Origin: a virus
Virus genome (UHGV): UHGV-0236300
Length of the DNA stretch: 64,000 nt
Strand: one strand, 5' to 3'
In this document: piece after piece, positions 1,127-43,109 of the stretch
Numbering within the stretch: position 1 is the first letter of the stretch
How the letters are laid out: the number at the start of each line of letters is the position of its first letter
Program-made: the position numbers and the translations under genes
The notes under the pieces: model-generated
What the model was told of the DNA's origin: nothing
What the model saw: only the letters and a program-made list of their open reading frames with translations
Databases searched by the model: none

Positions 1127-1525
1127 ATGATTACAGATGTGAAGATTATCCAATACCACCTAACCAAATTAGAAGATGCTGAAAAAGAGCTTGCAGAAGT
1201 TCTGAACAGTGGGTATACTTTACTGACATGCTCCTGCTCAGACACATACATTGTGTGGACACTTGCTAAGAAGGAAGAGCCTGCATGGATCTTGGTGCCA
1301 AACCCAGAGATCGCTAGTGAAGTTGATGGCTACTCCCAAGATAACGGCTTGCCAGAAGGTTGGGAAGTGTGGGAAGGTGGTGAAAACCCTGCACCAGGTA
1401 AGTGGGTAAAATACAAACTACGTAGCGGTGCACAGTATGCTGACTACTCTGATGACCTAGACTGGAGTCACTCTTCACCAGGATCATCTGCAAGTGCATA
1501 TGATATTGTTGCTTTTCAGGAATAA
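1127..1525 (+). CDS. hypothetical protein
   Basis: 132-aa ORF, RBS GTAGGAGG upstream. Confidence 0.55.
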   Translation: MITDVKIIQYHLTKLEDAEKELAEVLNSGYTLLTCSCSDTYIVWTLAKKEEPAWILVPNPEIASEVDGYSQDNGLPEGWEVWEGGENPAPGKWVKYKLRSGAQYADYSDDLDWSHSSPGSSASAYDIVAFQE

Positions 1526-1537
1526 GGAGAGGGTGTT

Positions 1538-2020
1538 ATGTCAGATTTTATGTGGAAGGTAGGTTATGCCTCTCCTGAAATGTGTGAGGCTTGTTTTGTG
1601 AAAATAGGCCGCGAGGATATTGACAAAGTGATCCTTAAGTTTCGTGATGTGTCTGTAATCGGCAACCGAGTTCTTAAGCACTTAAAGAATCTGAAGCTCA
1701 CCAAGAAGAAGTTCTTCGGACTTTTCGAAGAGAAAGTTGATGCTTGGACCCATTGCATTCAGGAAGCTAAATCTCACTACAGTGCTATCGTTACTCCGGA
1801 ACGGGTAGCCAAGATGGAAGGATTCATCAACAGCACGGAGTTTGAGTGCCTAAAGGCTGCCCTTGATAGCTATCCAAAGTGCCTCAAACACCTTGACAAG
1901 TATGTAGAAAAGGATGGTGAAATGTATCTCACCCTGGACGCATACTATGAGATGCAAGAAATTTTAAATTTAGATTTGACATTGGTATCCACCGAGTATA
2001 CAATAGGTATCCGGGTTTAA
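1538..2020 (+). CDS. hypothetical protein
   Basis: 160-aa ORF, RBS AAGGAGAGGG upstream. Confidence 0.55.
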   Translation: MSDFMWKVGYASPEMCEACFVKIGREDIDKVILKFRDVSVIGNRVLKHLKNLKLTKKKFFGLFEEKVDAWTHCIQEAKSHYSAIVTPERVAKMEGFINSTEFECLKAALDSYPKCLKHLDKYVEKDGEMYLTLDAYYEMQEILNLDLTLVSTEYTIGIRV

Positions 2021-2027
2021 CACTATG

Positions 2028-2053
2028 CCCTGCCCGAAAGGGTGGGGCTTTTT
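2028..2053 (+). terminator. rho-independent terminator
   Basis: 8-bp stem CCCTGCCC/GGGTGGGG (G-U wobbles), GAAA loop, then CTTTTT; near-identical copy at 13029-13056. Confidence 0.6.
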
Positions 2054-2071
2054 GCATTAGGAGACAGCAAA

Positions 2072-2836
2072 TTGAAATTTATCTACAAAGAACACTACCA
2101 CAAAGGTGTCGTGTGGAGTCTATTTGACGGGTCTGGTGGTGCAGTTATTGACTGGGCAAAAGCTGGGTACCTGTGCCTGTGCTTTAATGCAGAAGGTGCT
2201 GACCACGGTAGTTATGCAGAGGTGATAACCGATCATCCTAACATTCACTATGTGGATTATTGGATTGATCCATGGTTCCCTCAAGAAACTTTTTGCATGT
2301 ATCCAGCTCCAGACTTTATTCTTGCATTTCCTCCGTGCACGCATTTAGCAGTATCCGGAGCTGCACACTTTAAGAAAAAGCTGGCTAAGGACCCACTGAT
2401 CCAAATTAATGCTGTGAAAGATGCTCGGGTTGCAGAAGAGTTGGGAGAGATTTATGATTGCCCGTGGCATGTAGAGAACCCTGTAGGAGTTATGTCAACA
2501 CTGTGGCGAAAACCTGATTACCGTTTTCATCCTTCGGATTATGGTGGGTATCTACCAGAGGACGATGTAAACCCATGGTTTCCTGAATTTATAGCTCCAC
2601 GTGATGCCTACCCAAAAATAACTTGCGGTTGGATAGGCAATGGATTTATAATCCCCGCCACAAAACCTGTCCCGCAAATAGTTGATGTGGTTAGTGGTTA
2701 TTCCATGCAACACGCTAAGCTAGGTGGAAAGAGTGCAAGGACGAAGATGATTCGAAGCCTTACACCACGTGGCTGGGCAAGAGCTGTATTCTTAGCAAAC
2801 GAGCCTGCAGTAAGGAGAAGAATTAATGGGCAGTAA
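2072..2836 (+). CDS. C5-cytosine methyltransferase-like protein (divergent, small)
   Basis: Motif I-like LFDGSGG, motif IV-like FPPCTHLAVSGA (PC dipeptide), motif VI-like HVENP; start taken as TTG 2072 after AGGAG, since GTG 2042 lies inside the terminator stem. Confidence 0.45.
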   Translation: MKFIYKEHYHKGVVWSLFDGSGGAVIDWAKAGYLCLCFNAEGADHGSYAEVITDHPNIHYVDYWIDPWFPQETFCMYPAPDFILAFPPCTHLAVSGAAHFKKKLAKDPLIQINAVKDARVAEELGEIYDCPWHVENPVGVMSTLWRKPDYRFHPSDYGGYLPEDDVNPWFPEFIAPRDAYPKITCGWIGNGFIIPATKPVPQIVDVVSGYSMQHAKLGGKSARTKMIRSLTPRGWARAVFLANEPAVRRRINGQ

Positions 2837-4904
2837 ATTCATGGCATCTGCATACAACCGTTTCGGTGAGCCAAACCCGAAAGCAACTAAGTATAAAAGT
2901 GGGGGAAGTGTGAAACGAGACTATCGTGATGAAAAAGAAGTTGAAACTGTAGAGACTGTTTTAGAAAATACTAAAATTGTCCCTGTTCCACAACAAAATA
3001 TTGGACTGATGGCTGCACAATATTTTGGTGTACGATCATCGCTATCCCAAGAGGATGGTGTAACTGTTACTGCCACCTACTTTCCGTATTATGACCGCTA
3101 CGGTAATCTATCTGGCTTTAAAAAGCGGGACTGGACAATCCCTAAAGAGCAAAGGGGCCATTTCTCGGTTGTTGGCATAGTAAAGGCCAACTCCCAGATG
3201 TTTGGTCAAAAGCTGTGTGCATCCTCCAACAACCGCAAGCAGATTAACGTTTGTGAGGGGGAAGGAGATGTTATTGCAGCGTGGCAGGCTGCATATCAGG
3301 TACAAGTAAAAGGAATTCTCACCAATACTAAAGCCCCGGCGAAGGTGAAGCAGTGGGCTAAAGAAGTCCAGGATGGGATTGATGCAGTTATCAACGGCGG
3401 TGATCTGGCAGGAAAACCATGCCTGCCTTTTGTCGGAATTAACTGCGGGTGTGCAAACGCCGTAGACACTTTTGCGAACAATGAGAAATTTATCCGTAGC
3501 TACGGAACAGTAGTCCTTGCAATGGACAACGATGCAGCTAACGAGGTAGAGAAGCAAAAACACGTTATCAAAGGTGTTGAAGCTACGCATAATATCGCAG
3601 CATTTTTGATGGCTGACAACGTTTACCACGTGGAATACCCAGGTGAGGTAAACGACCCTGATGGTGTAAAAGATATTCGTGACATGCTGAAGGCTAAAAA
3701 GCTGGAAGATATTGTCAACATGTTCCGTCACCCAGTCAAATATGTGCCTGATGCTGTATCTGATTTAGAAGACTTCTCCATTGAATCTCTTCGTAAGAAG
3801 ACTTCCAATGGCGTGGATATCAGTGCAGAGTTCCCTAAACTGCAGAAGATGCTGAAAGGACTCCACAAAGGCACCTTGATGATGCTGACAGGCCCGTCTG
3901 GCGGTGGTAAAACAACTGTAGCCAAGAAGCTGGAACATTGCATTGCAAGATACTTGATGGACCCAACATGCCCTAAAGCTGATGATTATGAAGAGGATGA
4001 TCGCCTGTGCCTGATTCACCTTGAAGAGGATCCTGAGGAAGCAATCAACTCTCTGTACGCTAACCAGCTGGGGTTTGATGTTAAAGAGTTTGTTGAAGAC
4101 CCCAGTCAGTTCCTGACCGATCAGGAGCACGCTGAGATTCATCAATCTTGGGCCAAGGCCGGAAAAATCAAAGTGTTCAAGCATTTCGGCTCCATCCCTG
4201 TAGATGAGCTGATCACTAAGCTTAAACAAATGGTGTGCCTGTATCACTGCCGTTACATTGTGCTGGATCACTTGTCTATGGTGATTTCAGGGCTTAATGT
4301 TAAGGATGAGCGTAAAGAGCTTGACATGGCTATGACTCAACTAGCCGCGTTCTGTAAGCAGTTTAATGTGTTTATCTTGGTGATTGCTCACCTGAAGCGC
4401 ACAGAGATTGTACCTCCGAAGGATAAGGATGGAAATCCGTTACCTTTCTGGTACCCTGTACGAAAAGAGAACCTTCGCGGTAGTGCCGGATTGGAGCAAC
4501 TTAGCTGGGTGGTTGTCGGGGTAGAGGCAGAGGAGATGGTGGATCGTTCCCGTGGGCGTGTCCGGCTGGTAGGTCTTAAAAACCGCCCAGCAAAAACCTT
4601 AGGTATTGCGGACACTCTAGTTATGGATCCCCACACAGGCAAGTTCCACGATGCCAGCAATTGGTATTGGGATAAAGAGATGCAGATGTTTACAGACGGG
4701 GAAGGTGGAGAGGTTGTTTGGAGACCTCAAGCTATGTTTGAGGATCAGGAGCATGCAGTTGTAGAAACACCTGTGGGCAAGGTTGTGGCTGATAAGGTTA
4801 TAACTCCTGCTGTTAACCCTGTTGACACACAGGAAGATCTTCAGTATGATGATCCGTCCTCTAACCACGTTCCTGGTTTTGAAGACGACGAAACACCTTT
4901 TTAA
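2826..4904 (+). CDS. DNA primase-helicase (T7 gp4-like)
   Basis: TOPRIM-like CEGEGDVIAAW; Walker A GPSGGGKTT; Walker B-like FILVIAHL; acidic C-terminus ending EDDETPF; RBS AAGGAGA. Confidence 0.85.
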   Translation: MGSKFMASAYNRFGEPNPKATKYKSGGSVKRDYRDEKEVETVETVLENTKIVPVPQQNIGLMAAQYFGVRSSLSQEDGVTVTATYFPYYDRYGNLSGFKKRDWTIPKEQRGHFSVVGIVKANSQMFGQKLCASSNNRKQINVCEGEGDVIAAWQAAYQVQVKGILTNTKAPAKVKQWAKEVQDGIDAVINGGDLAGKPCLPFVGINCGCANAVDTFANNEKFIRSYGTVVLAMDNDAANEVEKQKHVIKGVEATHNIAAFLMADNVYHVEYPGEVNDPDGVKDIRDMLKAKKLEDIVNMFRHPVKYVPDAVSDLEDFSIESLRKKTSNGVDISAEFPKLQKMLKGLHKGTLMMLTGPSGGGKTTVAKKLEHCIARYLMDPTCPKADDYEEDDRLCLIHLEEDPEEAINSLYANQLGFDVKEFVEDPSQFLTDQEHAEIHQSWAKAGKIKVFKHFGSIPVDELITKLKQMVCLYHCRYIVLDHLSMVISGLNVKDERKELDMAMTQLAAFCKQFNVFILVIAHLKRTEIVPPKDKDGNPLPFWYPVRKENLRGSAGLEQLSWVVVGVEAEEMVDRSRGRVRLVGLKNRPAKTLGIADTLVMDPHTGKFHDASNWYWDKEMQMFTDGEGGEVVWRPQAMFEDQEHAVVETPVGKVVADKVITPAVNPVDTQEDLQYDDPSSNHVPGFEDDETPF

Positions 4905-33994: not shown

Positions 33995-34456
33995 TTACTT
34001 AAACAACAGTTCAAAATAGTGCAAAATTAACAGAAGTTGAATTACGCCTAGCACAACGGCGAGTATGTTGATCTTAGAATCAAAAAACTTCTTAACTTTT
34101 ACCCTAAAAGGCTCCTTAATGTCCTTTACGATCCTATTTATAGATGATTTCATATCCCTGATTACCATCCTAAACATTAGGGACGGATCTTCCTTCTCTG
34201 TAACGGAATCGAAAACATACTCTCTTCGGTCATAAGGACCTCCAGATCTGCGTATTAACCTCTCCACAGATACCTCGTACGACACACCTGTAACGTAATC
34301 ATCTATGACAAGTAGTGACGGATCTTTATCGTCCAAAGGTATTAAAGTTATCTTTCCAGATTTTGTTAAAATTTCTCCTTTTTCAAGCAGTGTGTACCAA
34401 TGCTCTCTACCAAGGTTGTTGAGGCACGTTTTTACATATTTAACAAACATCGTCAC
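33995..34456 (-). CDS. hypothetical protein with C-terminal transmembrane segment
   Basis: RBS GAGGGGTG; C-terminal ILAVVLGVIQLLLILHYF. Confidence 0.5.
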   Translation of the reverse strand: MTMFVKYVKTCLNNLGREHWYTLLEKGEILTKSGKITLIPLDDKDPSLLVIDDYVTGVSYEVSVERLIRRSGGPYDRREYVFDSVTEKEDPSLMFRMVIRDMKSSINRIVKDIKEPFRVKVKKFFDSKINILAVVLGVIQLLLILHYFELLFK

Positions 34457-36600: not shown

Positions 36601-36885
36601 CTACCAGGTCACTGTCAAGTAGGCAACTGTGTTATTTTTCTCCGGGGAGATGCCAACAACATCCACCCGCAGACCTCCTGCCCTCAAATCCCCAACGATG
36701 TGTGGGAAGTAGTCTGAGAGGTGTGATGGAAGATTTATCGAAAATCCGCATCCCAGAAAGCCTGCTAACGCCTTATTTTGTATCTCCCCTACAATCGCAT
36801 CATAAATGGAGTTAAGCTCGTCAGGGAGAGTTACAGGACGTTTTAGCGCTAACTGGTGCAACTTGTCCTTAGCACTCATTTTCAT
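36601..36885 (-). CDS. hypothetical protein
   Basis: ATG overlapping stop of upstream MTase gene. Confidence 0.45.
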   Translation of the reverse strand: MKMSAKDKLHQLALKRPVTLPDELNSIYDAIVGEIQNKALAGFLGCGFSINLPSHLSDYFPHIVGDLRAGGLRVDVVGISPEKNNTVAYLTVTW

Positions 36886-37415
36886 TTCAAGTCTGCCTCC
36901 GGAGGTGCCAACCACATAAATGGTGGTAGGTCTAAACGGTTCTTCTTGTCCCACACAAAATATGCATATGCTTGCCCGTCAGTTCTGCCATTAGATTGGA
37001 ATGATGGACGCTTAGATATTGTGATCACAGTGGTAGGGGCATTATCAAGCCACCATTCAAATCTGGCCTTGCTTTCCAGAAAATTAAGACGCAAAAGCAT
37101 AATAACTACGTCAGCATCTTTCAACGCCTTGTCCACAAACTCACGAGCCAGGCTGTACGGCGGGTTGGTGATAATACAGTCAACATGGTTGTATTCCGTA
37201 TTCAGATAGTCAACACCTTCTTGGATTTCTCCCCATGCAGATCCTAACGGCATACGGGAGTAGAATACACCTGAGGCGCTATTCCTGCAAGGCTCCAAAT
37301 AGGTCCAATCTTCTGGGAACGGAATGAGGTTATACAACCCTTCTGCACACCACTCTGGTGTCACATATTCATCATAGGCGTTACGTTGTTCGTCAGGTTT
37401 TCTAGCACAAGTCAT
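36882..37415 (-). CDS. DNA methyltransferase (NPPY-type, N6-adenine or N4-cytosine)
   Basis: Catalytic motif IV IITNPPYS; RBS TGGAGAT. Confidence 0.65.
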   Translation of the reverse strand: MTCARKPDEQRNAYDEYVTPEWCAEGLYNLIPFPEDWTYLEPCRNSASGVFYSRMPLGSAWGEIQEGVDYLNTEYNHVDCIITNPPYSLAREFVDKALKDADVVIMLLRLNFLESKARFEWWLDNAPTTVITISKRPSFQSNGRTDGQAYAYFVWDKKNRLDLPPFMWLAPPEADLK

Positions 37416-37426
37416 GCAAATCTCCA

Positions 37427-37454
37427 GATCATAAAAGCCCTCCGAAGAGGGCTT
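37427..37454 (-). terminator. rho-independent terminator
   Basis: Minus-strand hairpin AAGCCCTC/GAGGGCTT followed by TTTTAT. Confidence 0.55.
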
Positions 37455-37466
37455 TAAGATTAATGT

Positions 37467-38516
37467 TTAAGCTTCTTCGACAATTCCTGCGCCCAGGATT
37501 TTTTCATTGAGCTCTTTTGCTGTTTTAATAATATTGTCAACCAGACGCTTGCGGGTCTTATCTTTAACCTGAACTTCTTCACCTCCGTTCAGGGTGGTTT
37601 TCAATTGGGACAAAATGTCCTGAAGCTCTACCACAGAGAATCGCTGCAGATCTTCCGAGGTAATCTCACCCAGTGCAATCTTAACGGTCTCACCACTCTC
37701 CATCTGCAGATTCAGGAACACAGTGTGAACATCACCTTTCATACCATTTGCTTTTGCAGACTCAACAGCATGAACCAGCTCGTCCAGAGATGTGCATTGG
37801 TGAATCTCTGGCAAACCTGCTTCACCTAGCACACCTTCTTCATCACTTTTTGCCAAAAGCTTTTTCGGTTTCTGTCCATTCTGAATGTGCTGAATGTTTT
37901 CATCGTCCAGAATGATAGCACCAGTTCGAGATGCCAGCTCTTCTCCATCCAACCACACTTCGCCACCAGCTGTGATGGATGCGATCTCATCTTCTGTCAG
38001 AACCCCACCGTAGTATTTTTCAATCAGGCGTTCAAAACGTTTCTTCCAGTAGTTAACCTGGGTATTCATGTTCACACCGTTGCCATAGGTGCCACCTTGA
38101 TAGTAGTGGAACATAAACTCTGTGTCCGGAGCCACAGTTCGTTCTTTGCACCCCAGCCATAAGATTGTTCCTGCTGAGCAGCACATCCCTTCAGCGTGTA
38201 CAACAACGCTTGCCTGAGACTCGCGAAATGCCTGCAAATACGCCATAGCAATGTGAACGCAACCACCAGGGCTGTTAATGATTACACGGATACTTTCTTC
38301 TGGCTGTGCCATACGAATTGTTTGCAAACGTGACATATGATCCTGCAAGTCTTCAAGATCGTCAATATAAAGGACGTGGTCAACAACTGGCGTTGGGTAG
38401 CTATATGTTTCCATAATACCACCAGGCATACCGAACATTTTATTACTCATCGGTTCGAAGCCGTTCTGTTTTTCTTTCATACCGTGTACCATGGTGCTAC
38501 GAGGTGTTAAATTCAT
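37467..38516 (-). CDS. ClpP-like serine protease with N- and C-terminal extensions
   Basis: VIINSPGG, catalytic-Ser context GMCCSAGT, His context MFHYYQGG, Asp context VWLDGEEL in ClpP order; C-terminal ~130 aa helical extension. Confidence 0.6.
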   Translation of the reverse strand: MNLTPRSTMVHGMKEKQNGFEPMSNKMFGMPGGIMETYSYPTPVVDHVLYIDDLEDLQDHMSRLQTIRMAQPEESIRVIINSPGGCVHIAMAYLQAFRESQASVVVHAEGMCCSAGTILWLGCKERTVAPDTEFMFHYYQGGTYGNGVNMNTQVNYWKKRFERLIEKYYGGVLTEDEIASITAGGEVWLDGEELASRTGAIILDDENIQHIQNGQKPKKLLAKSDEEGVLGEAGLPEIHQCTSLDELVHAVESAKANGMKGDVHTVFLNLQMESGETVKIALGEITSEDLQRFSVVELQDILSQLKTTLNGGEEVQVKDKTRKRLVDNIIKTAKELNEKILGAGIVEEA

Positions 38517-38577: not shown

Positions 38578-38889
38578 TTATTTAGCAATTACCATGGAAT
38601 ACTTACAATTGTCAGAAGCATCACAGGTCAACGATTGCCAGTCTACAACATACCACGTATCATTGTCAACAATTACTTTATCGCCTGTTCTGTAAAAGGT
38701 GTTGCTTTCAATAACACGAGACTCAGTGAAGAATCGGTGTCTCCGCTCACGCAGTAGTGCTAAGTTGATTATATTACCACCGCTGTCCTTAATCCACACA
38801 TTCTTGTATCCTTTGTTTGCCAAAATTGTCTCGCCGTTATAGACAAATAGGCAGTATATTTTATTCAGTCTCTCTTGTATTGTAGCCAT
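38578..38889 (-). CDS. hypothetical protein
   Basis: RBS AAGGAGAATG. Confidence 0.5.
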   Translation of the reverse strand: MATIQERLNKIYCLFVYNGETILANKGYKNVWIKDSGGNIINLALLRERRHRFFTESRVIESNTFYRTGDKVIVDNDTWYVVDWQSLTCDASDNCKYSMVIAK

Positions 38890-38914: not shown

Positions 38915-38943
38915 ATAATATCTAAAACTTATCCGTTTGTCAA
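38915..38943 (-). promoter_or_regulatory. sigma70-like promoter
   Basis: Minus-strand TTGACA, 17-nt spacer, TATTAT. Confidence 0.5.
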
Positions 38944-38988
38944 CAATTGTTTTAGGTATTTAAGGGTGGAATAAACCACCCTTTTGTA

Positions 38989-39777
38989 TTACTCGGAAAC
39001 AGGGGTCCAAATATGATTTGCACGATCCTCAATGAGATTGAGTGCAATCTGACGACCCAACCCGGAACGAACAACATCGTCTGGACTATCAAAGCTGATC
39101 ATTCCGACCTCAGGATCTGGATGGCGAGTAAAGAAATCCGTAACCCACGCAAGGCCAGATTTACCAGGAATGTCACGTTGGCTGTTATCGCCCATAATTA
39201 CAAGGGTTGCCTGATCAGAGATCCTTGTGATGATTGACAACATCTCTTCAGGGTTGGTTTGCTGTGCTTCATCAATAAGGACAAAGCATCGTTCATCAAA
39301 ACTACGACCACGAATGCTTTCAACCTCACAAATCTCGATACGGCTGTTCTGACCATCCCCAAGCATTGCTGCAAAAGCACCTTTGCCGACACGTTTGCAA
39401 ATCGTGTCCATCATACTGCGAAGGTAAGGCCACAGTTTCTGCATTGCATTTCCAGGTTTAAATCCTGAAGTCTTTCCTGTTTGAACGTAAGGGCGTGCAA
39501 CAATGATCTTATCAATCTCGTTCTTACGCAAAAGATCACCTGCATATGCGGATGCCATGAATGTCTTACCGGATCCAAACACACCGTTTACAATAATAAT
39601 CTTACGCGATCCTAGATAATCAAGATACTTTTGCTGCTTTTTGTTCATTGGTCTAAGAGCTGGAGCTGTGTGCTCTCGTTCGTCAGCAAATTTCTCAGCA
39701 GCCTTACGCAGGCGATCAGATTTGCGAGCCTCTCTGGCTTCATCACGCATGCGTTTTGTTTCTTTAGCTCGACCCAT
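38989..39777 (-). CDS. phoH: PhoH-like ATPase
   Basis: Walker A GVFGSGKTF; VLIDEAQQ; GDNSQRD; RBS AAAGGAG. Confidence 0.8.
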   Translation of the reverse strand: MGRAKETKRMRDEAREARKSDRLRKAAEKFADEREHTAPALRPMNKKQQKYLDYLGSRKIIIVNGVFGSGKTFMASAYAGDLLRKNEIDKIIVARPYVQTGKTSGFKPGNAMQKLWPYLRSMMDTICKRVGKGAFAAMLGDGQNSRIEICEVESIRGRSFDERCFVLIDEAQQTNPEEMLSIITRISDQATLVIMGDNSQRDIPGKSGLAWVTDFFTRHPDPEVGMISFDSPDDVVRSGLGRQIALNLIEDRANHIWTPVSE

Positions 39778-40988: not shown

Positions 40989-43109
40989 TCAGCAACCACA
41001 ACTTCCGTAGTGCTTAACCCGTTCTATAACCTCAGCCTGCTTACCCTTATTGTAAGGGCGGGAGTTTGGACTAGACAGATACCCGGATACGCGTCTGATC
41101 ACACTGATCGTTCCTTCTTCATGGTTTCCACACTCTGGGCATACAAAGCCTTTAGCTGTTGCACTGAACTCGCCAGAGAATCCACACTTAAGACATTTAT
41201 CCACAGGCTGGTTAATACCAAAATACATAATGTGTTTATACCCGAAATCGACAAGAGCTTCTAAAGCATCTAAGTTGTTTTTCAGGTTAGGTGTTTCTAT
41301 GTATCCAATGTTGCCGCCAGAAGAGATCATAGCAAAACCTTCCTCATACTTCCACTTGTCAAAAGGTGAGCTATTGATCCACACGGGTTGGTGGAAACTG
41401 TTGGTAAGGTATTCGTGCTCGTGCTTCAACACTTCAGGATATTCACGATCTAGACATGTTGCAGCCTTATAGCACAAGCTCTCTGAAGGAGTGCCGTACA
41501 AGCTGAATGCCAGACCACTTTCTTTTTTGTACCGATCACAAGCATCTTTCATGTGTTGAAGGATCCCAAGAGCTAAGGACTTGTCTCCCTCTCTGCCTAA
41601 AATCTGGCAGGTTTCATACACACCAATATACCCAATACTTATGGAAGCATACCCGTCATAGAAGAGTTTATCAATACTCTCTTCAGGATCCAGGCGAGCA
41701 AGGGCCCCTTCACACCACATGATGGGGTTCTGCCCTGCCTTTGTTCCTTTTAGACGGTTAACTCTTACAAGGTGAGCCTCGTATGCCAGATCCAAGTACT
41801 CGTCAAGAACTGCAAAGAAATCAACACCTTCCGTTTTAGCTTTTGCCGCAATCATTGGTAGGTTAAGGCTAACAACACCCAAGTTGAATCTGCCAAGGTA
41901 TTTTTCATCACCCTCCGAGGTAACGTATTTGCCAAGGAACGACCTACATCCCATGCTTGTTACTTTGCCATCTGTTGAACCTGTCACTTTACGATTTAGC
42001 GGAACAGAAACAAAGTCAGGATAAATCCGCTCTGCAGAGCATTCTAGGGCCAATCGTTTCAAATCATAGTTAGGATCCCCAGGGTTCATGTTGACACCAT
42101 CTTCTAAGAAGAACAGCACTTTAGGGAACACAGGCGTGATCCGTTCTTCACCAAGACCCATTTTGTGGACTTTCAAGTAGTTTTTGGTAATCATTCTACC
42201 AAAGACCGAAGTATCCAGCCCTAAACTTAATGTGATGAATGGGGTTTGCCCGTTGACAGAAGTTAACGTATTGATTTGGTAGAGCAAAGTTTGCATACTA
42301 TCAAACACGTCTTTATCGGTCATTTGCATTGCAACAGTCTCAGCATCTGGCAACCAATGTTCCTGACAAAATTTAAGGTTCTTCTCATAAGTTGCTTCAG
42401 CATATTGTGCCAGATAATGATCAATATGGCTCATAGTTTGACCACCATATTGAGCACTAGCTACTGCACTAGAGATTTGACTAAGGATTGTTGTTGCAAC
42501 CCCTATTGACTTCGGCTTACTGACATGGGCGTTGCCAATGTTGAATCCGTTTTCCAGCATATCCGGATAATTTACCAAACAACAGTTTGTTAACGGACTG
42601 ATCAGGTAGTCAAGATCATGCACATGGATGAAGCCCTTGTTGTGCTCTTCTGAGACACGATCTGGCAGGATCTGTGTTGATGCAAGGTGTTTGCTAAGGA
42701 TGCCTGCAAGCAGGTCACGATGAGTGTGTACATGATTAGTAGGCTTATTTGCGTTTTCTTTTGTAAATTCATCACAAGTACGATCCAAAAAGCCACTAAT
42801 ATCTGCAAGCAGTTTTCCACCTGCCTCTCTGTTATTATCTCTTGTCTGTCTATACTGGATGTATTCTCTGGCTGCACATTTTAAACCCATATCCATAAGA
42901 GCATCTTCAACAAGGATATGGATATTTTTTACAGAGATCGTGCACTGGTCGGTTGGCAGATTGTTGGCAACAACTTCATTAACCGCGCAGGCAATCCGGT
43001 AAGCTTCTTCTTCAGTATGCCCAGACTCAAGTAAGGCGGACTCTGCCGCCTTGATCACCTTAATTCCGTTATAAAACTCTTCTCTACCGTCCCGTTTTAC
43101 AACTTTCAC
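40989..43109 (-). CDS. nrdD: anaerobic ribonucleoside-triphosphate reductase
   Basis: Collinear with T4 NrdD as recalled; C-terminal Cys cluster and glycyl-radical-like RRVSGYL; GTG start overlapping upstream stop. Confidence 0.85.
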   Translation of the reverse strand: MKVVKRDGREEFYNGIKVIKAAESALLESGHTEEEAYRIACAVNEVVANNLPTDQCTISVKNIHILVEDALMDMGLKCAAREYIQYRQTRDNNREAGGKLLADISGFLDRTCDEFTKENANKPTNHVHTHRDLLAGILSKHLASTQILPDRVSEEHNKGFIHVHDLDYLISPLTNCCLVNYPDMLENGFNIGNAHVSKPKSIGVATTILSQISSAVASAQYGGQTMSHIDHYLAQYAEATYEKNLKFCQEHWLPDAETVAMQMTDKDVFDSMQTLLYQINTLTSVNGQTPFITLSLGLDTSVFGRMITKNYLKVHKMGLGEERITPVFPKVLFFLEDGVNMNPGDPNYDLKRLALECSAERIYPDFVSVPLNRKVTGSTDGKVTSMGCRSFLGKYVTSEGDEKYLGRFNLGVVSLNLPMIAAKAKTEGVDFFAVLDEYLDLAYEAHLVRVNRLKGTKAGQNPIMWCEGALARLDPEESIDKLFYDGYASISIGYIGVYETCQILGREGDKSLALGILQHMKDACDRYKKESGLAFSLYGTPSESLCYKAATCLDREYPEVLKHEHEYLTNSFHQPVWINSSPFDKWKYEEGFAMISSGGNIGYIETPNLKNNLDALEALVDFGYKHIMYFGINQPVDKCLKCGFSGEFSATAKGFVCPECGNHEEGTISVIRRVSGYLSSPNSRPYNKGKQAEVIERVKHYGSCGC

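What the first reader, a model, noticed from the sequence alone, without database searches (positions are those of the whole stretch)
37467..38516. ClpP-like serine protease with long terminal extensions, not in a structural gene context
The catalytic triad contexts (CSAG, FHYYQGG, LDGEEL) and INSPGG are present in ClpP order, but the protein is 349 aa with a ~130-aa helical C-terminal extension. It sits between a methyltransferase and phoH rather than among head genes in this window. It may be a prohead protease-scaffold fusion displaced from the morphogenesis genes, or a protease acting on host proteins.
Basis: partly seen in the sequence, partly recalled or inferred. Interest (0 to 1): 0.45.

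Follow-up and report, generated by a model that had tools for sequence, protein, structure and literature searches.

The report
Second, non-capsid ClpP-like phage protease
This is the well-conserved but functionally uncharacterised "ClpP-like protease" gene of rV5-type E. coli phages: almost certainly an active serine protease, but not the capsid-maturation protease, because these phages carry a separate one next to their head genes.

Summary
The ORF is real: 37467-38516, minus strand, 349 aa, with all four quoted motifs present. The window comes from a Vequintavirus (rV5/FV3-like). The gene is rV5 gp122, annotated "ClpP protease" in about 120 phage records.

The core (about residues 45-212) is a ClpP fold by Pfam and Foldseek. 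Ser114 and His137 are invariant in 40 homologues. The third triad position is Glu186, not the Asp of "LDGEEL", which sits at a helix N-cap position.

The displaced prohead protease-scaffold reading is not supported:
- Relatives carry an XkdF-type (Peptidase_S78_2) protease between portal and scaffold, at least 33 kb away.
- The gene forms a two-gene unit behind a near-consensus sigma-70 promoter and ends at an intrinsic terminator.
- rV5 virion mass spectrometry did not list gp122.
- The ICP1 homologue is transcribed "middle-late" with nrdB and PhoH, while ICP1's capsid protease is a different, late gene.
- Family members also occur in T4-like, T5-like and N4-like phages, away from head genes.

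The "ATP-dependent" label is doubtful, because the ClpX/ClpA docking pocket is not conserved. The C-terminal domain (about 140 aa) has no detectable relatives outside the family. The substrates are unknown. This is a known gene family and an ordinary member of it, with an open functional question.

The parts
37467..38516 (-). CDS of the ClpP-like serine protease (349 aa; rV5 gp122 orthologue)
   Evidence: ORF listing. phrog_5410 'ATP-dependent protease' E=7e-154 over residues 24-345. Pfam CLP_protease E=4e-13. 97% nt identity to annotated vequintavirus genes. AAGGA Shine-Dalgarno-like motif upstream of Met1.
38391..38516 (-). N-terminal region, residues 1-42. Predicted disordered, with the conserved FGMPG...YSYP motif.
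   Evidence: AF2 pLDDT <50 for residues 1-42. F28, G29, P31, Y40 and P41 are invariant or nearly so. About 20 residues are missing in most of the other homologues aligned.
37881..38390 (-). ClpP-fold catalytic core, residues 43-212. Ser114 codon 38175-38177, His137 codon 38106-38108, Glu186 codon 37959-37961.
   Evidence: AF2 pLDDT about 85-94. Foldseek top hits are solved ClpP structures, E=2e-9, TM(target) 0.70. S114 and H137 invariant in 40 homologues. E186 aligns with ClpP D171.
37719..37880 (-). Variable, largely disordered linker (residues 213-266) containing one helix (244-257)
   Evidence: AF2 segments with pLDDT <50 at 222-240 and 258-263. Length and sequence vary between genera.
37491..37718 (-). 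Family-specific C-terminal domain (residues 267-342): beta-hairpin plus three helices. Invariant F293, E297 and R322.
38578..38889 (-). 103-aa ORF co-transcribed upstream (rV5 gene 121; phrog_5456, unknown function)
   Evidence: 30% identical to 4MG gp207. Not found outside Vequintavirinae.
38915..38943 (-). Sigma-70-type promoter TTGACA-17-TATTAT (11 of 12 consensus positions), equivalent to rV5 P121
   Evidence: rV5 Table S4 lists P121.
37431..37455 (-). Intrinsic terminator AAAGCCCUC-UUCG-GAGGGCUUUUAU, 12 nt after the stop codon (rV5 t122)
   Evidence: Sequence read. RNA fold -15.7 kcal/mol, z=-4.65. rV5 Table S4 lists t122.
38989..39777 (-). PhoH-like ATPase gene. Recurrent upstream neighbour of the ClpP-like gene in 7 of 11 sampled phage lineages.
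   Evidence: Pfam PhoH E=2e-47. Synteny seen.
36882..37415 (-). Downstream methyltransferase-like gene (177 aa). Starts a separate unit after the terminator.
   Evidence: phrog_799 E=9e-67. 64% identical to the 4MG gene in the same position.

Best explanation
The gene encodes a cytoplasmic, non-structural serine peptidase with a ClpP fold. It is a core gene of Vequintavirus and belongs to a large phage family (PHROG 5410 and its sister PHROG 1827) found in many unrelated lytic phages that already have their own capsid protease.

Shown here:
- The fold, the invariant Ser114 and His137, and Glu186 at the ClpP Asp position.
- The gene's position among nucleotide-metabolism and early/middle genes.
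- A separate XkdF-type prohead protease in the head module of relatives.
- A sigma-70-type promoter and an intrinsic terminator that frame a two-gene unit (orf103 plus protease).

Inferred:
- It is made before or alongside DNA replication rather than with the late head genes.
- It assembles into ClpP-like rings.
- It cleaves cytoplasmic host or phage proteins or peptides without docking to host ClpX or ClpA, because the hydrophobic IGF/IGL-loop pocket is replaced by conserved polar or charged residues.
- The lineage-specific C-terminal domain, on a flexible linker, most plausibly recruits substrates or localises the enzyme.

The substrates are not known.
For: - **Identity and fold:** phrog_5410 E=7e-154. 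Pfam CLP_protease above its gathering score. Foldseek top hits are all solved ClpP structures.
- **Catalytic residues:** S114 and H137 are invariant in 40 homologues. E186 aligns with D171 of E. coli ClpP. That position is D in ICP1 and PWH3a-P1, E in PAK_P1 and Q in Seunavirus.
- **Separate capsid protease:** in DrSchubert, portal 3214-4770, a 139-aa Peptidase_S78_2 protein (E=9e-18), scaffold, decoration protein and Phage_cap_E capsid protein. This protease is >=99% identical in 118 records, and its homologue is annotated 'capsid protease' in ICP1.
- **Transcription unit:** promoter with 11 of 12 consensus positions, terminator at -15.7 kcal/mol, and the same features listed for rV5 as P121 and t122.
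- **Virion content:** rV5 virion mass spectrometry listed 19 proteins without gp122.
- **Expression of a homologue:** ICP1 gene 211 (ClpP) is 'Middle-late', like nrdB and PhoH. ICP1's capsid protease gp125 lies in the late capsid cluster.
- **Context in other phages:** family members sit among early/middle genes in KVP40-like ValKK3 (between DHFR and a recombination protein) and in T5-like My1 and a Klebsiella phage (after dNMP kinase). One also sits in an N4-like vibriophage. All of these are phrog_1827.
- **Docking pocket:** the ClpA/ClpX pocket residues Y60, Y62, F82, I90, M92, F112 and L114, as listed in bioRxiv 10.1101/820209, map to R77, I79, E99, H107, E109, T127 and A129.
- **Host genes:** the Keio screen of LL12 reported only LPS core genes as required, and the paper never mentions clp genes. 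LL12's protease is 97.7% identical to this one.
Against: - No biochemical, genetic or expression data exist for this protein in any vequintavirus.
- Timing rests on predicted promoters and on a homologue that is 36% identical. A late-promoter-like TGGTAATATA (one mismatch) lies inside orf103.
- By profile score the core is nearer to ClpP-related head-maturation proteases (62.8 bits) than to cellular ClpP (33-41 bits).
- The rV5 virion mass spectrometry was shallow. It also missed the head-module protease, and proteases often leave the capsid after maturation.
- The acidic third triad residue is Gln in sister genera, so the catalytic arrangement is not settled.
- The pocket argument rests on a sequence alignment at about 20% identity. 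Model coordinates could not be inspected.
- The oligomeric state is untested.
Confidence: 0.68

Rival explanations
1. It is a prohead protease-scaffold fusion, or an accessory head-maturation protease, whose gene has moved out of the morphogenesis cluster. The C-terminal domain would target it into procapsids.
For: The best curated profile hits are 'head maturation protease, ClpP-related' (NF045542, 62.8 bits) and the ClpP-like prohead protease/capsid fusion (NF045540, 54.8 bits). PHROG head-maturation families 1684, 94, 2976 and 133 match at E=1e-15 to 2e-23. ClpP/S49-type prohead proteases commonly carry C-terminal scaffold-like tails (established knowledge, for example lambda C/Nu3). One protein encoded nearby, the rV5 gp133 homologue at 33995-34456, was reported in virions.
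Against: All curated cut-offs are missed (62.8 against 120; 54.8 against 475). The head module already has an XkdF-type protease and a separate scaffold. The gene has a sigma-70 promoter and is at least 33 kb from the head genes. gp122 was not found in rV5 virions. The ICP1 homologue is co-expressed with nrd/PhoH rather than with the capsid genes. The same family occurs in T4-like and T5-like phages, and phages of those groups have dedicated prohead proteases (established knowledge, not checked in these genomes here). The C-terminal domain shows no similarity to any scaffold.
Confidence: 0.1
2. It is a true 'ATP-dependent' ClpP subunit. It would dock to host ClpX or ClpA, or mix with host ClpP, to redirect or boost host Clp proteolysis during infection.
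For: ClpP fold with Ser and His in place, and a handle region of normal length. This is the database annotation in most records. In ICP1-infected V. cholerae, host clpS and clpA appear in a supplementary expression table with positive values (1.0 and 0.69), apparently log2 changes.
Against: Of seven mappable IGF/IGL-pocket residues, four are charged or His, T127 is polar and A129 is small. Helix B is five residues shorter, which removes the L48/F49 positions. The N-terminal axial-loop region has no similarity to ClpP and is predicted disordered. Identity to host ClpP is only about 20%, so mixed rings are unlikely. The LL12 host-gene screen reports no dependence on clp genes. All ClpP equivalog cut-offs are missed by a wide margin.
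Confidence: 0.1
3. It works together with the neighbouring PhoH-like ATPase as a two-component module, either as a novel ATP-dependent protease or as a shared pathway such as RNA/protein turnover during host takeover.
For: PhoH lies on the same strand within 1.5 kb upstream in 7 of 11 sampled lineages: Vequintavirus, Seunavirus, ICP1, PWH3a-P1, Vibrio phage 249E41-1, Otagovirus and Barbavirus. In Otagovirus the two ORFs overlap by 8 nt. In ICP1 both genes are 'Middle-late'.
Against: Several of these lineages share other neighbouring genes (DNA ligase, dCMP deaminase), so the linkage may be inherited synteny. In the window a hairpin and a promoter separate phoH from the protease unit. PAK_P1 lost PhoH from the same neighbourhood but kept the protease. 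T4-like, T5-like and N4-like members are not next to PhoH. PhoH-family proteins are linked to RNA rather than to protein unfolding (established knowledge).
Confidence: 0.06
4. It is a catalytically weak or inactive ClpP-fold protein used as a structural or regulatory ring, for example as a decoy or inhibitor.
For: The canonical Asp is Glu here and Gln in most sister genera. The positions of E. coli E169 and R170 next to the triad Asp are Gly-Gly. From memory, the equivalent residues act as an inter-ring 'oligomerisation sensor' in S. aureus ClpP.
Against: Ser114, His137 and the surrounding motifs (INSPGG, CSAGT, MFHxYQGG) are invariant across 40 sequences down to 40% identity. That pattern is expected of a working active site.
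Confidence: 0.05

Closest known systems
Phage 'ATP-dependent protease' families PHROG 5410 (Vequintavirinae long form) and PHROG 1827 (ICP1, PAK_P1, KVP40-like, T5-like and N4-like phages); rV5 gp122, FV3 gp114, DrSchubert bas50_0176
   Same: Full-length profile match (E=7e-154). The same gene in the same position in about 120 vequintavirus records. The same ClpP-like core and early/middle genomic context.
   Different: Nothing of note. The window's protein is 99.7% identical to an annotated one. The family itself has no assigned biological role.
Cellular ClpP (MEROPS S14; E. coli ClpP, PDB 1tyf/6wr2)
   Same: The same fold (Foldseek E=2e-9, TM 0.70). The nucleophile Ser and general-base His sit in the same motifs, and the handle region has the same length.
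   Different: - Only 19-24% identical, and far below the ClpP equivalog cut-offs.
- Glu (Gln in sister genera) in place of the triad Asp.
- The ClpX/ClpA docking pocket is not conserved.
- No ClpP-like N-terminal axial loops.
- It carries an extra 140-aa C-terminal region.
ClpP-related phage head-maturation proteases (NCBIfam NF045542/NF045540; PHROG 1684, 94, 133)
   Same: These are the best-scoring curated profiles for the core. Like many of them, this protein carries a C-terminal appendage.
   Different: - Below the family cut-offs.
- Not in the head module.
- The genome has another (XkdF-type) prohead protease and a separate scaffold.
- Sigma-70 promoter.
- Not seen in virions.
- The ICP1 homologue is not co-expressed with the capsid genes.
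Signal peptide peptidase A / lambda gpC (MEROPS S49)
   Same: Distantly related ClpP/crotonase-type fold.
   Different: No S49 profile hit at E<=0.1. S49 enzymes use a Ser-Lys dyad, whereas this protein has an invariant His at the ClpP His position.

Membership tests
Cellular ClpP (S14, ATP-dependent Clp protease proteolytic subunit) | ClpP alpha/beta fold with handle region | tested here: met
   AF2 core pLDDT about 90. Foldseek top 50 hits are all ClpP, E about 2e-9, TM(target) 0.6-0.72.
Cellular ClpP (S14, ATP-dependent Clp protease proteolytic subunit) | Curated sequence-model thresholds (Pfam PF00574; NCBIfam TIGR00493 and the PRK models) | tested here: inconclusive
   Pfam PF00574 passes at 50 bits against 20.2, but covers only profile positions 32-143 of 182. 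TIGR00493 scores 33.4 against a cut-off of 308.6, and the PRK models 21-41 against 228-361.
Cellular ClpP (S14, ATP-dependent Clp protease proteolytic subunit) | Ser-His-Asp catalytic triad | tested here: inconclusive
   Ser114 and His137 are invariant. The Asp position holds Glu186 here, Gln in Seunavirus-type homologues, and Asp in ICP1. Side-chain geometry could not be inspected.
Cellular ClpP (S14, ATP-dependent Clp protease proteolytic subunit) | Hydrophobic pocket that binds the IGF/IGL loops of ClpX/ClpA | tested here: not met
   Y60, Y62, F82, I90, M92, F112 and L114 map to R77, I79, E99, H107, E109, T127 and A129. The L48/F49 positions fall in a deletion. The residue list is from 10.1101/820209. 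This rests on an alignment, not on a structure.
Cellular ClpP (S14, ATP-dependent Clp protease proteolytic subunit) | Heptameric rings stacked into a tetradecamer | not testable with these tools
   No multimer prediction or coordinates were available. The positions of E. coli E169 and R170 are Gly184-Gly185.
ClpP-related phage head-maturation protease (NF045542; PHROG 1684/94) | Profile score above the curated cut-off | tested here: not met
   62.8 bits against a cut-off of 120, and 54.8 against 475 for the capsid-fusion model.
ClpP-related phage head-maturation protease (NF045542; PHROG 1684/94) | Encoded in the head module next to portal, scaffold and capsid genes, as the phage's capsid protease | tested here: not met
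   In DrSchubert the gene lies at 107.2-108.3 kb and the head module at 3.2-7.7 kb. The head module has its own Peptidase_S78_2 protease.
ClpP-related phage head-maturation protease (NF045542; PHROG 1684/94) | Late expression and presence in proheads or virions | tested here: not met
   - Sigma-70-type promoter and its own terminator.
- Absent from the 19 proteins found in rV5 virions.
- The ICP1 homologue is 'Middle-late', together with nrdB and PhoH.
- All of this is indirect: there is no prohead proteomics or expression data for a vequintavirus.
Non-structural phage ClpP-like protease (PHROG 5410/1827) | Full-length profile match | tested here: met
   phrog_5410 E=7e-154 over residues 24-345, profile positions 4-322 of 323. 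phrog_1827 E=1e-39.
Non-structural phage ClpP-like protease (PHROG 5410/1827) | Location among early/middle and nucleotide-metabolism genes, in genomes that have another capsid protease | tested here: met
   Location met in the window and in DrSchubert, FV3, 4MG, ICP1, PWH3a-P1, phiPsa381, PAK_P1, Barba35A, ValKK3 and My1. A second (XkdF-type) capsid protease was shown only for Vequintavirinae genera, ICP1 and P. syringae phages.
S49 SppA / lambda gpC-type protease | S49 profile match and a Ser-Lys dyad | tested here: not met
   No Peptidase_S49 hit at E<=0.1. There is an invariant His at the ClpP general-base position.

The most novel reading that the evidence does not exclude
The ClpP-like peptidase and the PhoH-like ATPase that precedes it in most sampled lineages could form a previously unrecognised phage-encoded ATP-dependent protease or RNA/protein turnover module. 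This module would work independently of the host AAA+ unfoldases and be used for host takeover or counter-defence. The lineage-specific C-terminal domains would choose the targets.
Probability: 0.06. Interest if true: 0.8.

Novelty: already known. Interest (0 to 1): 0.28.

Why it matters
The gene has been annotated since the rV5 genome paper, so its existence is not news. What remains open is why more than a thousand lytic phage genomes from unrelated groups keep a second ClpP-fold protease outside their head genes. These groups include rV5-like, ICP1, PAK_P1-like, KVP40-like, T5-like and N4-like phages.

If the protease degrades host regulators or defence proteins, or supplies amino acids, it would be a widespread host-takeover function. 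That would be relevant to therapeutic phages such as the rV5-like and PAK_P1-like groups.

The practical lessons here are for annotation. 'ATP-dependent' is not justified by the sequence, and 'head maturation protease' would be wrong.

Tried and rejected
- **Homology between C-terminal extensions.** hhalign found none between the Vequintavirinae C-domain and the ICP1-type extensions (probability 0.3%).
- **A conserved small partner protein.** The ORFs between PhoH and the protease are not conserved beyond subfamily level.
- **Defence-system models.** PADLOC gave nothing meaningful.
- **Literature.** Searches for a characterised phage-encoded non-structural ClpP found none.
- **Alternative start codon at Met23.** Considered because sister genera start there. 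It lacks a Shine-Dalgarno motif, while Met1 has AAGGA.
- **Terminator scan.** The scan tool missed the terminator after the gene, so it was read directly and folded.
- **Active-site geometry.** Model coordinates are not exposed, so Ser-His-Glu distances could not be measured.

Full report
**1. Observation**

The ORF at 37467..38516 (minus strand) is real and 349 aa long. Pfam CLP_protease matches above its gathering score (E=4e-13, residues 59-168), and no S49 model appears.

The flanking genes are as described. A methyltransferase-like ORF lies downstream. A 103-aa ORF and then PhoH lie upstream.

**2. Source and prior annotation**

The window is a Vequintavirus (rV5/FV3-like E. coli myovirus). 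The gene is 97% identical in DNA to several annotated phages and is found in 118 records. At protein level it reaches 99.7% identity.

It is rV5 gp122, "ClpP (ATP-dependent) protease subunit". In the BASEL phage DrSchubert it is called "ClpP-like protease". The window covers DNA polymerase/primase, many small early genes and the nrd/phoH/thyA region. It contains no head genes.

**3. Is it the prohead protease?**

In DrSchubert the head module reads portal, a 139-aa "prohead protease", scaffold, decoration protein and major capsid protein. I tested that protease annotation:
- The 139-aa protein matches Pfam Peptidase_S78_2 (XkdF) at E=9e-18, 65 bits against a cut-off of 24.
- It matches head-maturation PHROGs.
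- It is >=99% identical in 118 records, and its ICP1 homologue is annotated "capsid protease".
- In the related Certrevirus CB7, the head-module protease was detected in virions by mass spectrometry.

The genome therefore has a complete, conventional head-maturation set at least 33 kb from the ClpP-like gene.

**4. Transcription context**

- Between phoH and the 103-aa ORF lie a hairpin and a TTGACA-17-TATTAT promoter with 11 of 12 consensus positions.
- Twelve bases after the protease stop codon lies a GC-rich hairpin followed by a T run (-15.7 kcal/mol, z=-4.65).
- The rV5 paper lists the same elements as promoter P121 and terminator t122. It places its "late" promoter motif only in front of structural genes.
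- A one-mismatch copy of that late motif lies inside orf103. Such matches are common in this non-structural window, so it carries little weight.

**5. Experimental hints from relatives**

- rV5 virion mass spectrometry found 19 proteins. The text and tables account for all of them and gp122 is not among them. The experiment was shallow, however.
- In ICP1, whose ClpP-like protein is 36% identical over the core, RNA-seq classifies gene 211 (ClpP) as "Middle-late" together with nrdB (204) and PhoH (208). The predicted capsid protease gp125 belongs to the late capsid cluster.
- A Keio-library screen with LL12 (protease 97.7% identical) reported only LPS core genes as required and does not mention clp genes.

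**6. Family and distribution**

tblastn finds relatives in 1159 phage records. The Vequintavirinae long form is PHROG 5410. The following are all PHROG 1827: ICP1, PWH3a-P1, Vibrio phage 249E41-1, PAK_P1, Otagovirus, Barbavirus, KVP40-like ValKK3, T5-like My1 and an N4-like vibriophage.

In these genomes the gene mostly lies among nucleotide-metabolism, replication or lysis genes. T4-like and T5-like phages have well-known dedicated prohead proteases (established knowledge, not checked in these genomes here). This argues that the family as a whole is not morphogenetic.

PhoH lies just upstream on the same strand in 7 of 11 sampled lineages, and the two ORFs overlap in Otagovirus. Against a functional link:
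- PAK_P1 lost PhoH from the same neighbourhood and kept the protease.
- Other shared neighbours, such as DNA ligase and dCMP deaminase, suggest inherited synteny.

**7. Anatomy**

The AF2 model, built on 40 homologues, gives these regions:
- A confident ClpP core (residues 45-212, pLDDT about 90).
- A disordered N-terminus (1-42).
- Disordered linkers.
- A moderately confident C-terminal domain: beta-hairpin 267-281 and helices 287-342.

Foldseek against the PDB returns only ClpP structures (E about 2e-9, TM 0.70, 19-24% identity). Ser114 and His137 are invariant.

The ClpP Asp171 position aligns with Glu186 ("GGEVW"). It is Gln in Seunavirus-type sequences, Asp in ICP1 and PWH3a-P1, and Glu in PAK_P1.

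The ClpA/ClpX IGL/IGF-loop pocket residues are listed in bioRxiv 10.1101/820209. They map to R77, I79, E99, H107, E109, T127 and A129, most of which are invariant in the family. Helix B is also five residues shorter. This makes canonical docking to host unfoldases unlikely, although it rests on an alignment at low identity.

**8. C-terminal domain**

No relatives were found outside the family by any of these searches:
- phmmer over 1.8 billion representatives.
- Pfam.
- BFVD.

It is also not detectably related to the ICP1-type C-terminal extension. Short-form members such as PAK_P1 and My1 lack any extension. A conserved catalytic core with interchangeable C-terminal appendages fits a role for the appendage in substrate choice or localisation. 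That is inference only.

**9. Comparison with known families**

By curated profiles the core scores highest with ClpP-related phage head-maturation proteases (62.8 bits, cut-off 120). It scores lower with cellular ClpP (33-41 bits, cut-offs 228-361). It is not a member of either family by threshold.

It is a clear member of the uncharacterised phage family PHROG 5410/1827. No functional study of that family turned up in the literature searches.

**10. Verdict**

The "displaced prohead protease-scaffold fusion" reading is not supported. "A protease acting on host (or phage) cytoplasmic proteins" remains the best but untested reading.

The gene is already known and is an ordinary representative of its family. 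The interest lies only in the family's unexplained function.

Noticed in passing
window 33995-34456 (-): This 153-aa ORF has a C-terminal hydrophobic helix. It appears to correspond to FV3_00125 ('similar to rV5 possible structural protein'), presumably rV5 gp133, which was reported as a predominant protein in rV5 virion mass spectrometry although the gene lies in the early/middle region. Correspondence inferred from position and size, not aligned. It could be a true internal or injected protein, or a membrane contaminant.
   Followed up: no
window 38950-38992 (-) / 38962-38983: A stable hairpin (-13.9 kcal/mol, z=-3.6) lies directly after the phoH stop codon. It has no clear T run on the minus strand. 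The scan tool reads it as a terminator on the plus strand. It may act as a bidirectional or partial terminator separating phoH from the orf103-protease unit.
   Followed up: partly
window 40989-43109 (-): The anaerobic ribonucleotide reductase nrdD is one intact 706-aa ORF here. In FV3 the gene is split in two by an HNH homing endonuclease.
   Followed up: no
phage records MG0656xx ('Campylobacter phage C2, C5, A135, ...'): Records labelled as Campylobacter jejuni phages carry rV5-like E. coli phage genes at 90-100% identity, including both proteases. They look mislabelled or contaminated.
   Followed up: no
L012 (Pseudomonas phage PPSC2, NC_073678) 1369-3139: The product labels appear shifted by one gene. 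The 'Clp protease' label sits on a PhoH-sized ORF (orf162), and the real ClpP-like match is the 'hypothetical' orf161.
   Followed up: partly
L006 (PAK_P1) 2642-4058 versus L010 (phiPsa381) 1822-4013: The two ORFs upstream of the PAK_P1 protease are homologous to the two ORFs that precede PhoH in phiPsa381. PAK_P1 has therefore lost PhoH from an otherwise conserved PhoH-protease neighbourhood.
   Followed up: yes
window 36601-36954 (-) and 36882-37415 (-): The mechanically listed 117-aa ORF overlaps the end of the methyltransferase gene by 73 nt. The PHROG match starts at residue 24 and relatives annotate a 94-aa product, so the real start is probably the internal ATG and there is no long overlap.
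   Followed up: partly
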